Below are positions 22,701 to 31,700 of a stretch of DNA of 64,000 nucleotides, one piece after another. The stretch comes from Brachybacterium sillae (GTDB lineage Bacteria; Actinomycetota; Actinomycetes; Actinomycetales; Dermabacteraceae), in the NCBI RefSeq assembly GCF_025028335.1, contig NZ_JAFEUW010000001.1, positions 1,488,001 through 1,552,000 on the forward strand. Reading direction: 5' to 3'. Position 1 is the first letter of the stretch. Each line of letters begins with the position of its first letter. A program made the position numbers.

Positions 22701-25700
22701 CGCCGTCGCGGCGGGCAGTGGTCTCCAGGGAGACGGAATCGGAGCCATGCTCCGGCTCGGTCAGCGCGAAGGCGGCGTACTGCTCGCCGCGCGCGACCGG
22801 CTCCACCCAGCGCTCCTTCTGCGCCTCGGAACCGTGCATGACGATCGACCGCAGCGCCAGTCCGCCCTGCACGCCGATCATGGTGCCGACGCTGCCGTCG
22901 AGCCGACTGGCCTCCATCGTCACCAGGCCCGCGGCCAGCGGCGACATCCGCCGGTGACCGGGCACGTCGAGTCCGTCGACGAACAGGTCGAGCTCGCCCA
23001 GGCGGTGCACGATCTCCAACGGGTACTCCGCGCGGTCCCAGGCGTCGTCGATCCGTTCCAGGATCTCCCCGGAGAGGGAGCGCACGGTGCGCCAGGCCTC
23101 GAGGTCCTCCCCGGTGACGTCCTGCAGCACGGCGTAATGGTCGATCACCGGGGGCAGCAGGTCGGCGGGGGTGGCGGCGGACGGGTCGGGGGCCGACACC
23201 ACGCTGCGATCGGTGCGCACGCTCGTCGACGGGGCGTTCATCATCACTGCATCCTCTCCAGCACGAGGGCCATGCCCTGCCCCCCACCGACGCAGAGGGT
23301 GGCCAGGCCATAGCGGCCGTCGCGTGCGCGCAGGCCGTTGATCAGGGTGGTGGTCATGCGGGCGCCGGTGGAGCCCCACGGGTGTCCCAGGGCGATGGCA
23401 CCGCCGTGGACGTTCAGCCGCTCGGGGTCGATGCCGAGCTGCTGGGCGGAGGGGATCACCTGCGCGGCGAAGGCCTCGTTGAGCTCGACCAGATCGATGT
23501 CCTCGATGGTGAGGCTGGCCAGGGCGAGGGCCCGGCGGGTGGCCTCGACGGGGCCGAGCCCCATGATCTCGGGGCTGAGGGCCGACACCCCGGTGGAGAC
23601 GATCCGCGCCAGCGGTGTGATGCCGAGCTGCTCGGCGCGTTCATCGGACATGACCACCAGGGCGGCGGCGCCGTCGGACAGCGGGCAGCAGTTGCCGGCG
23701 GTGACGGTGCCGTTCTCGCGGAACGCGGGCTGCAGGGCCTGCACCGCCTCGAGGGTGACACCGGGGCGTGGAGAGTCGTCACGGTCGACGACGGTGCCGT
23801 CGGGCAGCGTCACCGGGCTGATCTCACGGGCGAAGAACCCGGAGGCGATGGCGGCCTCGGCGCGGTGCTGGGAGCGCACGGCGTACTCGTCCTGGGCCAG
23901 ACGGTCGACGCCGCACAGGTCGGCGACGTTCTCAGCGGTCTGCCCCATGACGATGTACGGGTCGGGCAGGTCTCCATCCTCACGCGGATCGTGCCACGGC
24001 TCCCGCAGACGACCGGTGGCGCGGGCCTCGGTGCGCTCCCAGGCGCTCTCGAAGACCGGGTTGCGGGTGTCGGGCGCCTGCAGCTGCCCGGTGGAGAAGG
24101 ACAGCGATTCGACGCCCGCGGAGATGATCGTGTGGGCCTCACCGGCACGGATGGCATGGAAGGCGCTGCGGGTGGTCTCGATGCTGGAGGCGCAGAAGCG
24201 GGTGACGGTGGCGCCGGGCACCTCGTCCAGCCCGAGGCGGACCGCGACGGTGCGGGCGAGGTTCCCGCCCTGGTGTCCCTCCGGCAGGGCGCACCCGAGT
24301 TGGAGGTCGTCGATCCCCTCGAGCTGCGGCAGCTGGTCGAGGGCGGCGCGGATGGTCTGGGCGGCGAGTTCATCGGGCCGCAGGCTGGCGAGGGAGCCCT
24401 TCCGGGCGCGGCCGATGGGTGAGCGGGCGGCGGCGACGATGACGGCCTCGGGCACGCGATCCTCCTGGCTGATGCCGAGCGGCAGGTGACGGACGGCCGA
24501 CCCACCACCGCGCTCACCCATGAGCGTTTTGGTGATACTTGCCGTCCTAGTTACTTTTCCCCAGTGTGACGCATGTGACGCTGCGCGTCCAGCCCCCGGA
24601 CAGCGCGACGCCCCCGGCCGGGTGGACCGGGGGCGTCGGGGAAGGGGGCGTCGGTGCGGGAGCGGCGGCTTGTGGATCAGGCGGCGTGCGCGGATCAGGC
24701 GGCGCGCACGCGCTTGCGGGCCAGGGTGGCCAGGGAGACGATCCCCAGCAGCAGCACCACGCCGAGAACCACGTGGACCCAGCGCGCCCCCATCTCGCCG
24801 AGGGCGTACTGGACCAGAGCCAGCACCGCCATGGTGAGGGCGTGGGCGAACACGCCCCAGTTCTTCACCTGGGCGCCGAGCACCCCGGCGGCGATGGTGG
24901 CGACGATCAGGCTGAGCAGCAGCAGCACGGCCACCACGGTGTGGACGGTGATGACGCCCCAGCCGCCGCCCACGAGGACGATGCCGAGGACGGTCTGGAG
25001 GATTGCGAGGGCCGCAGCGGCGTAGGCGATCGGCGGCAGGGCCAGGGCGAACCCGCGGGCGGTACGAGCGTCGGCCGTGGTGGTGCGGGTGGTGTCGCGG
25101 GGGGTCGTCTCAGGGGTGTGTGTCATGGTCTCGACTCTATCGGCGGTCCCGCCGGGAGGATCGAACCTTCGGTTGATCCGCGCGGGCCGCGGCGGCGCGA
25201 ATCTCCTCCCATGCTTCCTGCCGCCATCGTCCTCATCACCCTGGCCCTCGTCCTCTACACCGCGGGGTGTGGGCGATCTGGCTGATCCCGTACGTGACGG
25301 GGATGCTCGGCGCCATGATCGGCTGATCGCCGGGCCGGGCGGTCGGAAAGGACCATCGACGGCGCACATCCAGGCAGCGGGGCATACGTTGAGGTCATGT
25401 CCCCCTCCTCCCCCTCCCGGTCCGGCGCACGCGGGCCCTCTCCGCTGGATGACCTCGCCGAGGCCGTCGGAGGTACGCCGCTGGTGCGTCTGCGCCGTCT
25501 GTTCCCCGACCTGGACGGCGACTCCCCGCGCCTCGAGCTCTACGCGAAGCTGGAGCAGTTGAACCCCGGCGGGTCGACCAAGGATCGCCCGGCCCTGGCC
25601 ATGCTGGAGGACGCCCTGGCCAGTGGGCGACTCGCCCCCGGCGGCACCGTCGTGGAATCCAGCTCCGGCAATCTGGGCATGGCGCTCGCCCGCGCATGTG

Positions 25701-28700: not shown

Positions 28701-31700
28701 CCGGAGCGGATCGTGCTGACCGCCGCGATGAAGCCCCGGGAGCTGCTGCGCGGTGCGGTCGAGGCGGGCGTGACCATCGCCCTGGATTCCGTCGCCGAGG
28801 CCGAGGCCACCGCCGAGGAGGCCGCGGTCGCCGGTCGCACCGCCGCCGTGGCACTGCGACTGGCCCCCGAGGTCGACGACCTCATCGGCCCCACCCGCTT
28901 CGGCGAGCGCCGCGCCACCTGGGAGTCCTGGGCCGGCAGCTCCGCGAGCGTCGGCACCCGGTTGCGGATCGACGGCGTGCACTTCCATCTCCACGGGTAC
29001 AGCGCCCCGGCCCGCACCCGCGCGCTCGGCCAGGCGCTGCAGCTGGTCGACTCCCTGCGCGCCGCCGGCCAGCCCGTCGCCTTCATCGACATCGGCGGAG
29101 GCGTGCCCATGTCATATCTCGAGGACGGCGCCGACTGGGAGGCGTTCTGGCGCGAGCACGAACGGGCTCTGCGGGGGGAACGCGAGCCGCTGACCTGGCG
29201 CGGCGACGGCCTGGGACTGCGCGCGGTGCCCACGACGGATGCTGAGGGCGAGGGGTCCGTGCGGGTCGTCGGCGAACCGGCGCTGTACCCGTACTGGCAG
29301 GAGCTGATCCGCGGCCCGTGGCTGACGCAGGTCCTCACCACGGAGGTGGCCCCCGGTGTCCGGGCCGCCGACGCGTTGCGCGAGCGGGGTCTGGAGCTGC
29401 GCTGCGAGCCGGGCCGGTCGGTGCTCGACGGCTGCGGCCTCACCCTGGCGCGGGTCGCGCAGGTCACCACCACCAGCGACGACGTCGGCATCATCGGCCT
29501 GGCGATGAACCGCACCCAGTGCCGCTCCACCTCGGAGGACTTCCTGGTCGACCCGATCCTGGTGCCCGACCCGGACGCGGCCCCCACGGACACCCCCGGT
29601 ACCCCTGGAAGCGCGGAGCCCCGCACGGGTTTCCTGCTCGGGGCGTACTGCATCGAGGCCGATCTGATCCTGCGCCGGCGCCTCACCTTCCCCGGGGGTG
29701 TGGCCCCCGGGGACATGATCGCCCTGCCGAACACCGGCGGGTACCTGATGCACATCCTCGAGAGCGCCTCGCACCAGATCCCGCTGGCGGCGAACGTGGT
29801 GCGCAGCTCCGACGGCAGCGTCCGTCGCGACGGCATCGACGAGGTCTCCCCGCTGCGCTGAGGCACGCCCCGCGGATCTGTCGGTTCCACGGCGTACGGT
29901 GAGCCCAGCGATCCACCCGTCCGCCAGGAGACCCGCGATGACGCCCACCTCTGATCAGACGCCGCCTTCCCCGGCCGCCCATCCCCGGGCCGGTGACGCC
30001 CACACCCGCCTCGCCTCCGAGCGCATGGACTACCGCGCCGGCACCCTCGGTGACGACGTCCCCGCCGACCCGCTGGAACTGTTCGGCCGGTGGCTGTCCG
30101 AGGCCTTCGACCGTCGGGACTCCGAGGGCGACCTGCCGGAGCCGACCGCCGTCGTGCTGTCCACCATCGAGCTGCCCACCGGCGACGCATCCGCCGACGG
30201 CGGCCACCCCTCCGCCCGGCCGCGATCCCGCACGGTGCTGCTGAAGGAACACGACGAGCGTGGCTTCGTGATCTACACCAACGGCGATTCCGCCAAGGGC
30301 CAGGAGATGTCCGGCACGCCGTGGGCGGCCATGCTGTTCCCCTGGTACGCGCTGCAGCGGCAGGTGCGCGTGGAGGGGTTCGTGCAGCGGGTGGACGATG
30401 CTGAGGCCGACGAGTACTTCGCCTCCCGTCCGCGCGGCTCGCAGCTGGGCGCGCGGGCCTCTCACCAGTCGCGGCCGATCGCCTCCCGGGAGGCCCTGGA
30501 TGCGCAGTACGCGCAGGTGGAGAGGGAGTTCGAGGGGCGGGAGGTGCCGCGGCCCGAGCACTGGGGCGGCTTCCGTCTGGTGCCCGACCGGATCGAGTTC
30601 TGGCAGGGCCGCTCGGGCCGCATGCACGACCGCATCGTCTACACCTCCGAGGGATCGGGCTCGTGGACCCACGAGCGCCTGCAGCCCTGAGCGCGCCCAC
30701 CCAGCGGACCGTCAGCCGGTTCGCAGACGGACCGGTCCACACTGGGCCCCGCTGTCGGGCGTCCCGAGCCCGACCCGACTGGAGGAACCCCCAGGCTCGA
30801 CCTGCTGACCGGCATCCCCGTGCACGTGCTCGTGGTGCACGCCGTCGTCGTCCTGGTGCCGCTGGTGGCGCTCGGCACCCTCGCGGTGGCCCTGGTGCCG
30901 CGGTGGCGTCGGCAGTTCGGTGGGCTGCTCGCCCTGCTGTCGCTCGTCAGTGTGCTGGTCCTGCCGTTGGCGCTGGAGAGCGGTGAGGCGTTGGGGGAGC
31001 GCGTCGGCGTCCCCGAGCTGCATGCGGACCTGGCCGAGACGCTGCCGTGGCTGGCGGTCCCCCTGTTCCTGTTGACCACGGCCCTGTGGTGGCTGGGCCG
31101 GGGCGATACTCGCGCTGACACCCGCGCGGGGGCCGACCACGACGGCTCGGTGGCCGTCGGTTCCCGCGGCCGCACCCTGCAGCGGGTCCTCGCCACCCTG
31201 GCGGTGCTGTTCGCGCTGGCCGCGGCGGTGGACGTCGTCGCTGTCGGGCACACCGGTGCGTCGGCGGCGTGGACCGATCGTCTGGCGCCTGCCACCGGAT
31301 CCCCCACACCCTCCGACGGCGACTGACCCCTCCGCCGGGCGGCTCCGGGGTGTGCGCCGGACGTGCGACGATGTGGCATCCCGACCCCAGGAGGCCCCAT
31401 GCCCACGGACGACACCGCGCGCCCCGCGGAGGACACCCGCTCCGACCGGACCACCGGTGACACCCACACCGACGGCACCGACGCCGACGGCACGGACTCG
31501 AAGGGCACGGGCGGCGCGGACGGCCTGGACGTCGCCGACCCGAAGGAGGCGCTCGAGGAGGAACTCGTCGAGGAGTTCGAGAACACCGTCTCCGAGGGTG
31601 CCGAGCGCCTGCATCGCACGTGGCGGGCGCTGGTGATCACCGGCCTGTTCGGCGGGATCGACGTGGCCCTCGGCATCATGGCGATGCTCGCCGTGATGGA

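What a model noticed while it worked through the whole genome (the two positions that open the first line are those of the whole stretch)
25397..29861. SbnA-flavoenzyme-Y4yA operon: a candidate SbnB-free route to diaminopropionate or ethylenediamine
Three overlapping genes encode SbnA, an FAD-dependent NAD_binding_9 protein and a Y4yA-type PLP decarboxylase, with no SbnB, and the trio recurs in distant Actinomycetota. The flavoenzyme likely replaces SbnB (or N-oxidises the SbnA product) and Y4yA decarboxylates it to a small diamine. The operon and its product are undescribed in the papers searched.
Evidence so far: g01353 passes TIGR03945 SbnA; g01355 hits y4yA (30%). Y4yA orthologues in 4 of 200 phylum genomes; the same three-gene order in G306 and G299, SbnA plus aminotransferase in the other two. 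PALP-NAD_binding_9 are neighbours in 1159 genomes. Search 153 lists y4yA only as a rhizobial T3SS-region gene.
(Added by a program. Inside this text positions count along the whole contig: contig position 1,488,001 is position 1 of the stretch shown here. "Call 12" and the like, gene names such as g00115 and contig names such as C1 are that model's own, and its searches are not shown. The text may have been shortened before it was handed on; [...] marks where a part breaks off. The agent that wrote the report below was given it as the finding of a first reader that could run no searches.)

Follow-up and report, generated by a model that had tools for sequence, protein, structure and literature searches.

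The report
Three-gene N-oxygenated diamine stress cassette
Three overlapping enzyme genes form a self-contained cassette found in actinobacteria, marine alphaproteobacteria and Bacteroidota, which likely builds an undescribed nitrogen-oxygenated ethylenediamine-type small molecule that is predicted to stay inside the cell and may help it survive general stress.

Summary
The operon is real: sbnA, a flavoenzyme gene and a Y4yA decarboxylase gene with 4-base overlaps. The trio is far wider than reported: 75 of 80 genome loci (the other 5 are cut by contig ends), 43 of 44 metagenome loci with enough flank, and plasmids of Sulfitobacter, Chondrinema and Tsukamurella. No fourth gene is conserved; 14 flavoenzyme-decarboxylase fusions were seen. 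SbnA keeps its phosphoserine-selecting residues, and no true SbnB occurs in 30 carrier genomes; the genome's cyclodeaminase is an ordinary OCD. The flavoenzyme is a class B N-monooxygenase closest to FzmM/CreE (Z 26.8), not a dehydrogenase, but lacks FzmM's aspartate pocket and a linked lyase. So "replaces SbnB" is the weaker reading. Other Y4yA subfamilies pair with a PALP enzyme plus a different third enzyme, as in aminopolycarboxylate metallophore clusters. Best model (about 0.5): SbnA joins phosphoserine to glutamate, Y4yA decarboxylates, and the flavoenzyme N-oxygenates, giving an intracellular N-oxygenated N-(2-aminoethyl)-amino acid. Neighbours point to general stress (long catalase in 9 of 23 lineages). 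No product or substrate is shown. The scan noted this cassette earlier in another genome (e1-2746540).

The parts
25385..25390 (+). Probable housekeeping-type -10 element (TACGTT) 6 nt before the sbnA ATG: likely a leaderless transcript
   Evidence: Sequence; the same TANNNT + 6-7 nt + in-frame start is found in 16 of 18 Brachybacterium loci. Inferred; no transcript data.
25397..26485 (+). sbnA-family PLP beta-substitution enzyme (362 aa)
   Evidence: TIGR03945 356 bits vs cut-off 349.95; best PDB hit SbnA 5d84, E 1.9e-66; K62, R148, Y168, S201, R240 match SbnA K47, R132, Y152, S185, R224
26482..28344 (+). FzmM/CreE-like class B flavoprotein N-monooxygenase (620 aa), substrate unknown
   Evidence: PF13454; model pLDDT 89.7; Foldseek best hit FzmM 8cp2 E 1e-25, next family 1e-10; VIA Z 26.8, rmsd 3.7-4.0, 520-525 aligned, next entry Z 19.4; family profile vs 8cp2 E 5.5e-45
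28341..29861 (+). Y4yA-family fold-type III PLP decarboxylase (506 aa), trio-specific subfamily
   Evidence: PF02784; DAPDC-like fold; K85, H216, GGG, EPGR, C437, Y468 invariant in 86 of 86 rows; trio-type proteins form one side of a 99% branch; a separate housekeeping-type PF02784 gene lies at C1:541953

Best explanation
The three genes form a stand-alone cassette that likely works as one pathway: SbnA likely joins O-phosphoserine to the amine of L-glutamate (or aspartate), the Y4yA enzyme is predicted to remove the serine-derived carboxyl to give an N-(2-aminoethyl)-amino acid, and the FzmM-like flavoenzyme likely adds oxygen to one nitrogen using NADPH and O2, giving a hydroxylamine, oxime, nitrone or nitro product that probably stays in the cell and likely serves in general-stress protection. 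Shown: gene structure, conservation as a unit, fusions, enzyme families and catalytic residues, no SbnB, no conserved transporter or ligase, stress-type neighbours. Inferred: all three reactions, their order, which nitrogen is oxidised, the oxidation level and the physiological role. My single best guess for the product is N-hydroxylated N-(2-aminoethyl)-L-glutamate acting as an intracellular iron ligand or radical scavenger.
For: Unit conservation: 75 of 80 genome loci, 43 of 44 metagenome loci with at least 3.2 kb upstream, three plasmid contexts in three phyla. Pairwise identities of the three proteins correlate (Spearman 0.74-0.77 over 81 rows; kin are not independent). 14 flavoenzyme-Y4yA fusion proteins and one SbnA-flavoenzyme fusion (L198). 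SbnA residues R132/Y152/R224 equivalents are invariant in 81 of 81 rows and S185 in 78 of 81; all four are invariant in 42 of 42 metagenome rows. R132/Y152/S185 select phosphoserine (PMC12414870, passages). Flavoenzyme: FzmM fold; FzmM Asn62 = N104 in 78 of 82 rows (4 gaps) and 45 of 45; Arg13 = K/R21, Arg266 = K/R300, putative NADPH Arg R292 in 80 of 82 (FzmM residues from PMC10404684). Family logic: 14 of 15 non-trio Y4yA loci show an adjacent PALP gene, with a different third enzyme in each subfamily. PALP + DAP-decarboxylase + OCD is the make-up of antiSMASH aminopolycarboxylic-acid clusters (PMC13206832, passage). Stress context: 15 of 23 dereplicated metagenome lineages carry long catalase, DUF421, DUF2383, Ku or DUF892 nearby, catalase in 9 of 23. 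A sigmaB/SigF-like promoter pattern precedes sbnA in 8 of 77 loci vs 5 of 817 control windows; shuffles mean 0.58, maximum 4.
Against: No substrate, product, activity or expression evidence. FzmM oxidises the alpha-amine of an amino acid, and its close family is not known to act on an aminoethyl or secondary amine (PcxL acts on 2-aminoethylphosphonate but is only 17% identical to FzmM). The third-enzyme slot argument cuts both ways: the OCD and opine dehydrogenase of the other subfamilies could cleave like SbnB. The residues tested cannot tell Glu from Asp or other nucleophiles; relatives use Asp or D-Ala. The stress link is absent at this locus: flanks are a thiolase, a membrane protein and pdxH, with no sigmaB-like promoter. 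Only about 10 of 41 actinobacterial loci had stress-type flanking genes. No background control was run for the marker genes, the promoter pattern was chosen after looking, and three of its 8 hits are related lineages. The flavoenzyme is in two pieces in 5 of the 75 loci, and one locus keeps Y4yA without the other two genes (L180).
Confidence: 0.5

Rival explanations
1. The flavoenzyme stands in for SbnB: it oxidatively cleaves ACEGA (or its decarboxylated form) to free diaminopropionate or ethylenediamine, or their N-hydroxy forms through a nitrone that hydrolyses.
For: No TIGR03944 match over cut-off in 30 of 30 carrier genomes, and none at E<=1e-15 in 8 of them. Gene order is SbnA-flavoenzyme-decarboxylase. 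The same slot holds NAD(P)-linked imine oxidoreductases in two other Y4yA subfamilies. The trio SbnA passes or nearly passes the SbnA equivalog.
Against: The fold and catalytic Asn are those of an O2/NADPH monooxygenase. No NRPS condensation or IucA/IucC domain in this 99.99% complete genome to use Dap. Plain cleavage to an unoxidised amine is not known class B chemistry (recalled).
Confidence: 0.22
2. The flavoenzyme acts first, N-hydroxylating a free amino acid (glutamate or similar); SbnA uses the hydroxylamine as nucleophile and Y4yA decarboxylates the adduct.
For: FzmM acts on the alpha-amine of a free amino acid. Basic residues near the flavin are kept (K/R21, K/R300, partly R431). An SbnA-flavoenzyme fusion exists (L198).
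Against: The SbnA active-site residues tested are unchanged from ACEGA-forming SbnA. Flavoenzyme-decarboxylase fusions (14) outnumber SbnA-flavoenzyme fusions (1) among those seen. The FzmM studied tends to run on to the nitro product without releasing intermediates.
Confidence: 0.15
3. The flavoenzyme is a CreE/FzmM orthologue making nitrosuccinate, 3-nitropropionate or nitrite from aspartate, used for N-N or nitro chemistry on the SbnA/Y4yA diamine.
For: FzmM is the closest structure. Alanosine clusters combine SbnA/B with CreE/D homologues (bioRxiv 10.1101/763607, passages). A formate/nitrite transporter gene lies 1.5 kb downstream here.
Against: FzmM aspartate-chamber residues R412, N413, R416 are replaced by Y/S, P and V/N, and R276 has no counterpart. 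No lyase gene recurs near the trio. A CreD-like query finds nothing in this genome or in 9 other carriers of 30. The transporter had no tblastn hit in the other trio loci tested. The trio enzymes branch apart from CreE.
Confidence: 0.06
4. The remote ornithine cyclodeaminase supplies the SbnB step in trans and the cassette is an ordinary Dap pathway with accessory genes.
For: An OCD-family gene exists; 22 of 30 carriers have some OCD-family hit.
Against: It is a true OCD beside ctlX. 8 of 30 carriers have no hit at E<=1e-15 and none passes the SbnB cut-off. The trio travels alone on plasmids.
Confidence: 0.03

Closest known systems
Staphyloferrin B Dap module of Staphylococcus aureus (SbnA, SbnB, SbnH)
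   Same: SbnA-family enzyme with R132/Y152/S185/R224 equivalents; a fold-type III PLP decarboxylase in the same cluster (SbnH role recalled; 6knh is a weak profile hit, E 1.4e-15).
   Different: No SbnB, NIS synthetase or exporter; an N-monooxygenase is present; the decarboxylase is of the Y4yA subfamily.
Aminopolycarboxylate metallophore clusters (EDDS/EDHA, aesA-D type)
   Same: PALP enzyme + DAP-decarboxylase-like enzyme building an ethylenediamine unit. Loci with PALP + OCD + Y4yA-family + MATE, some with an arginine hydroxylase, are a sister Y4yA subfamily (L131, L135, L136). That these are aes-type clusters rests on gene make-up (PMC13206832 passage; PMC10702961 passage) and on recall; the primary papers were not read.
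   Different: The trio has a flavin N-oxygenase where those have OCD, has no MATE exporter or metal-uptake genes, and its PALP is much closer to SbnA (about 350 vs 230-250 bits on TIGR03945).
FzmM/CreE L-aspartate N-hydroxylases (PDB 8CP2/8CP5) with FzmL/CreD lyase
   Same: Three-domain class B fold over the whole length (Z 26.8); Asn62, Arg13, Arg266 and Trp51 equivalents kept or conservatively changed.
   Different: About 21% identity; aspartate entry-chamber residues not kept; no linked lyase; coupled or fused to a decarboxylase.
Rhizobial y4yB-y4yA-y4xP-y4xO-y4xN-y4xM cluster
   Same: Y4yA beside a cysteine-synthase-family gene (PMC3973906 passage).
   Different: Separate Y4yA clade at about 30% identity; carries a SerK-like kinase, an opine dehydrogenase, IucA/IucC and transporters; its own product is described as enigmatic in the review read.

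Membership tests
SbnA family (TIGR03945) | Score over the curated cut-off | tested here: met
   356 vs 349.95 bits, narrow; orthologues 348-413 bits
SbnA family (TIGR03945) | Phosphoserine-selecting R132, Y152, S185 and PLP lysine | tested here: met
   R148, Y168, S201, K62; 81/81, 81/81, 78/81, 81/81
SbnA family (TIGR03945) | L-glutamate as nucleophile, ACEGA as product | not testable with these tools
   R224 equivalent invariant, 81/81 (its role is recalled); needs an assay
SbnA/SbnB Dap synthase pathway | SbnB (TIGR03944) in the cluster or genome | tested here: not met
   0 of 30 carriers over cut-off; own OCD 80.6 vs 326.9
Class B flavoprotein N-monooxygenases, FzmM/CreE fold | Two dinucleotide-binding domains plus large helical substrate domain; catalytic Asn over the flavin | tested here: met
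   Z 26.8, rmsd 3.7-4.0, 520-525 aligned; N104 = Asn62
CreE/FzmM aspartate N-hydroxylases (orthologues) | Aspartate entry chamber R276, R412, N413, R416 | tested here: not met
   Replaced by Y/S, P, V/N; no R276 counterpart
CreE/FzmM aspartate N-hydroxylases (orthologues) | Arg577 and Val571 loop | tested here: inconclusive
   Compared through a CreE-like proxy (L107): an ungapped reading pairs R588 with this Arg, while MAFFT places a 16-residue gap there
ANS nitrite pathway (CreE + CreD) | Linked nitrosuccinate lyase | tested here: not met
   No recurring lyase neighbour; the CreD-like query (identity inferred from its place next to a CreE-like gene) has no hit in this genome
Fold-type III PLP decarboxylases, Y4yA-like | PLP Lys, stacking His, GGG loop, EPGR, catalytic Cys, C-terminal Tyr | tested here: met
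   All invariant in 86 of 86 rows; DAPDC fold; motif roles recalled
LysA diaminopimelate decarboxylase (TIGR01048) | Score over cut-off | tested here: not met
   107 vs 297.9 bits; a second PF02784 gene elsewhere scores 201 bits
Aminopolycarboxylate (EDDS/EDHA-type) clusters | PALP + decarboxylase + OCD, with MATE exporter | tested here: not met
   PALP and decarboxylase present; no OCD or MATE recurs beside the trio
General-stress (sigmaB/SigF-type) regulon member | Promoter GTTT-N13-17-GGG(T/A)A and stress induction | tested here: inconclusive
   8 of 77 loci vs 5 of 817 controls, but absent at this locus; consensus recalled; induction not testable

The most novel reading that the evidence does not exclude
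The cassette makes a widespread, so far unknown stress metabolite: an N-hydroxy or nitrone ethylenediamine-glutamate kept inside the cell as an iron chelator or radical trap, moved between Actinomycetota, Alphaproteobacteria and Bacteroidota as part of general-stress islands. It would be made by a CreE-type enzyme working on a non-aspartate substrate, and would show the Y4yA family to be a general ethylenediamine-forming module with interchangeable tailoring enzymes.
Probability: 0.25. Interest if true: 0.82.

Novelty: new variant of a known kind. Interest (0 to 1): 0.6.

Why it matters
It is a minimal, three-gene orphan pathway found in at least three phyla (341 genome stretches matched the actinobacterial patterns; 91 metagenome stretches matched the Bacteroidota query), so its product can be found by one expression experiment. 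If the model holds, it gives a first function to a Y4yA-family decarboxylase, a new substrate class for CreE/FzmM-type N-oxygenases, and possibly a new small-molecule stress protectant. It also warns that an 'sbnA' annotation need not mean diaminopropionate: 5 of 13 top TIGR03945 places in a 401-genome sample belong to this cassette.

Tried and rejected
Single-sequence PDB search with the flavoenzyme found nothing; the profile and fold searches did. No RNA holder or other run was listed, which is no evidence on expression. No phage match. The sigma-70 consensus scan found no promoter; two terminator-like hits lie inside genes and were taken as chance. A conserved fourth gene was sought by clustering 1345 called ORFs from 83 loci, by clustering the metagenome loci and by Pfam on 143 of 162 listed flanking proteins from 41 actinobacterial loci: none found. 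The simple ORF caller misses some genes in high-GC DNA. pdxH lies beside the trio here and in only 2 other loci; the formate/nitrite transporter had no other hit: both rejected as members. Rejected: remote OCD as SbnB; Y4yA as LysA; flavoenzyme as a CreE orthologue. The trio flavoenzymes were not one clade in a quick tree, since two stand-alone roseobacter-group proteins nest inside; the Y4yA tree is also a quick tree. The PF02317 search rang in no control genome, so it shows nothing. The wide VIA search was not run. Literature: 'y4yA' gave 4 papers, seen as listings plus passages of one, all rhizobial or review titles; SbnA+ethylenediamine+decarboxylase gave 0; searches listed nothing describing this trio (listings only); searches and the papers opened did not give the gene-by-gene EDDS/EDHA chemistry. 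Spohn 2016 is not held; Spohn 2018 and Kobylarz 2016 were seen only as citations. The library lacks most subscription journals and bioRxiv supplements are closed, so a description elsewhere is not excluded. No complex prediction was run because no binding claim is made.

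
Full report
Observation. The window comes from a 2.67-Mb, 99.99% complete high-GC genome whose best named homologues are mostly Brachybacterium. Three + strand genes overlap by four bases each: sbnA 25397-26485, a 620-aa flavoprotein gene 26482-28344 and a 506-aa decarboxylase gene 28341-29861. GC content matches the surroundings. Upstream lie a small membrane-protein ORF and a thiolase on the other strand; downstream is pdxH. A TACGTT element 6 nt before the ATG suggests a leaderless transcript, a layout seen in 16 of 18 Brachybacterium loci (inference).

Distribution. Ten of 24 same-genus genomes and 0 of 16 from other families of the order have the decarboxylase at E<=1e-40. 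A scan of species-representative genomes found 341 stretches encoding relatives and returned the best 80. Of these, 75 show sbnA, flavoenzyme and Y4yA in this order on one strand; 5 are cut by a contig start, and 2 of those still show the flavoenzyme. In 5 of the 75 the flavoenzyme is in two pieces (assembly error or decay), and in L058 three other genes are inserted before Y4yA. The trio is also on plasmids of Tsukamurella, Sulfitobacter (Alphaproteobacteria) and Chondrinema (Bacteroidota). A metagenome scan with the Chondrinema protein found 91 relatives and returned 80 loci; 43 of the 44 with at least 3.2 kb upstream have all three genes. That most of these are Bacteroidota is inferred from the query, low GC and type IX secretion neighbours. 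In an even draw of 400 phylum genomes, 4 carry the trio type. Fourteen flavoenzyme-Y4yA fusion proteins and one SbnA-flavoenzyme fusion (L198) were seen. Pairwise identities of the three proteins correlate at 0.74-0.77. No fourth gene, transporter, ligase or regulator recurs beyond close kin.

SbnA. It passes TIGR03945 narrowly and its best PDB match is S. aureus SbnA. The residues that select O-phosphoserine, R132, Y152 and S185 (PMC12414870, passages), are R148, Y168 and S201, kept in 81, 81 and 78 of 81 rows; the R224 equivalent R240 is kept in 81 of 81, and all four in 42 of 42 metagenome rows. The genome has serC for phosphoserine supply. SbnA and CmnB make ACEGA from glutamate, while relatives use aspartate or D-alanine (bioRxiv 10.1101/2025.10.30.685158, passages), so the nucleophile is likely but not shown to be glutamate.

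No SbnB. The only OCD-family gene is a true ornithine cyclodeaminase beside ctlX. Across 30 carrier genomes none passes the SbnB cut-off and 8 have no hit at E<=1e-15. The genome has no IucA/IucC or NRPS condensation domain, the usual users of Dap (recalled).

Flavoenzyme. The model (pLDDT 89.7) matches the aspartate N-hydroxylase FzmM far better than anything else (Foldseek E 1e-25 vs 1e-10; Z 26.8, rmsd 3.7-4.0, 520-525 residues vs Z 19.4; profile E 5.5e-45). From PMC10404684 (parts 1-3 of 6 read), FzmM is an NADPH-specific class B monooxygenase with Asn62 over the flavin and an aspartate chamber of R13, R276, R416, R577 and N413, with R266, R409 and R412 nearby. In the trio enzymes Asn62 is kept (N104), R13 and R266 are K or R, W51 is Y or W, and R409 is kept in part; R412, N413 and R416 become Y/S, P and V/N, R276 has no counterpart, and R577 is unresolved. 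No lyase accompanies the trio, and a CreD-like query has no hit in this genome or 9 other carriers of 30; the hits in the rest are unlinked and probably ordinary PcaB or PurB (inference). It therefore works like FzmM (N-oxygenation) but is not an aspartate hydroxylase orthologue by the features tested.

Y4yA. It has the DAP-decarboxylase fold with all catalytic motifs invariant in 86 of 86 rows, and it is not LysA. Fifteen more distant Y4yA-family loci fall into three other clades, each with its own gene set (quick tree, 99-100% SH-aLRT): rhizobial (SerK-like, PALP, opine dehydrogenase, IucA/IucC, transporters); actinobacterial with OCD and MATE, some with an arginine hydroxylase; and PALP-rhodanese with a SufS-like enzyme. 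A PALP gene is adjacent in 14 of the 15; in L104 the ORF was not called. PALP + DAP decarboxylase + OCD is the make-up reported for an antiSMASH aminopolycarboxylic-acid cluster (PMC13206832, passage), the class that includes EDHA with genes aesA-D (PMC10702961, passages). EDHA carries substituents on both nitrogens of ethylenediamine, so there the OCD probably forms a C-N bond on the amine freed by decarboxylation (inference; primary papers not read). This suggests a common module, PALP plus Y4yA giving an N-(2-aminoethyl)-amino acid, with a variable tailoring enzyme; in this cassette that enzyme is an N-oxygenase. PLP decarboxylation needs a free alpha-amine, so oxidation of that amine cannot come first (established chemistry).

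Role. Among 40 metagenome loci of at least 10 kb, collapsed to 23 lineages at 75% identity, 15 have long catalase, DUF421, DUF2383, Ku or DUF892 within about 7 kb, and 9 have the catalase. A single-copy gene would fall in such a window well under 1% of the time (rough estimate, no control run); one of the 23 is L180, which lacks the first two genes. About 10 of 41 actinobacterial loci have flanking genes such as Pyrid_ox_like, PfpI, ferritin/Usp, CsbD, DUF892, STAS or SpoIIE. Reading these as general-stress genes is recalled knowledge. A sigmaB/SigF-like pattern precedes sbnA in 8 of 77 loci against 5 of 817 other windows, 1 on the reverse strand and a shuffle mean of 0.58; it was chosen after inspection and is absent here. 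With no exporter, an intracellular stress protectant is the most economical role, but it is untested and not evident at this locus.

Verdict. Best model (0.5): OPS + Glu/Asp to ACEGA-type adduct, decarboxylation, N-oxygenation, intracellular product. Rivals: oxidative SbnB replacement (0.22), hydroxylated nucleophile first (0.15), CreE-type nitrite source (0.06), remote OCD (0.03). The searches listed under Tried and rejected showed no description of the trio; y4yA appears as an enigmatic rhizobial gene (PMC3973906, passage). Other papers opened as passages only: PMC9252823, PMC7586795, PMC11356490, PMC8914351 (plus its one supplement), PMC13676664, PMC7347517, bioRxiv 10.1101/2025.02.24.639861 and 10.1101/763607. 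The scan reached a similar reading earlier on another genome (e1-2746540), seen after my reading was logged; it is not independent support. The parts are known families in a new combination, so this is a new variant of a known kind. Interest 0.6: a compact, cross-phylum, directly testable orphan pathway with an unusual N-oxygenase and a possible stress role, but no product evidence.

Noticed in passing
G000:C1:2305792-2307483 (L156:8577-10559 +): A second, stand-alone CreE/FzmM-like flavoenzyme gene (PF13454, 122 bits) lies between dapD-like and dapE-like genes, with no lyase partner; it is long-branched and lacks the RxxRN motif.
   Followed up: partly
L020:9540-17760, L022, L023: The rhizobial y4yA cluster (SerK-like, Y4yA, PALP, opine dehydrogenase, IucA/IucC, MFS, ABC, TonB receptor nearby) has the enzymes expected for rhizobactin of S. 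meliloti DM4, an ethylenediamine-linked alanine/lysine siderophore (structure recalled, link untested).
   Followed up: no
L128-L130, L132, L134, L104, L105: A Y4yA subfamily paired with a PALP-rhodanese fusion and, in most, a SufS-like enzyme (sometimes a methyltransferase or an HMA-domain protein) in Streptomyces plasmids and unnamed actinobacterial genomes; earlier scan notes e1-7333487, e1-1508413 and e1-4321160 seem to describe it.
   Followed up: partly
upstream of sbnA in L025, L026, L028, L029, L032, L035, L038, L041, L042: Palindrome ACCGnnCGGT within 260 nt upstream in 9 of 18 Brachybacterium loci (background 0.012 per 260 nt; 1 of 59 other loci), a candidate operator; absent in this window.
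   Followed up: partly
L058:6940-8872: In Luteococcus sanguinis three genes (unassigned low-complexity protein, holin-X family, DUF3618) are inserted between the flavoenzyme and Y4yA genes.
   Followed up: partly
L106:5980-7635, L108:5992-7734: Stand-alone flavoenzymes on Rhodovulum and Roseibium plasmids (with similar hits on many Pseudosulfitobacter plasmids) nest among the trio enzymes in a quick tree but have no sbnA or Y4yA neighbour.
   Followed up: partly
L180:6998-8455: Trio-type Y4yA without sbnA or flavoenzyme; a related locus (L186) with the same downstream genes has the full trio, suggesting deletion.
   Followed up: partly
L018:777-7083: On a Sulfitobacter plasmid the trio follows glycosyltransferase, HAD-IIB hydrolase and sulfotransferase genes; linkage in the other Sulfitobacter plasmids was not checked.
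   Followed up: no
window 20979-21935 (+): 318-aa ORF with no Pfam hit, by eye resembling an ATP-grasp protein; separated from the cassette by thiolase and acyl-CoA dehydrogenase genes.
   Followed up: no
window 41055-45000: Lower-GC stretch (0.60-0.67) with transposase-like ORFs judged by eye.
   Followed up: no
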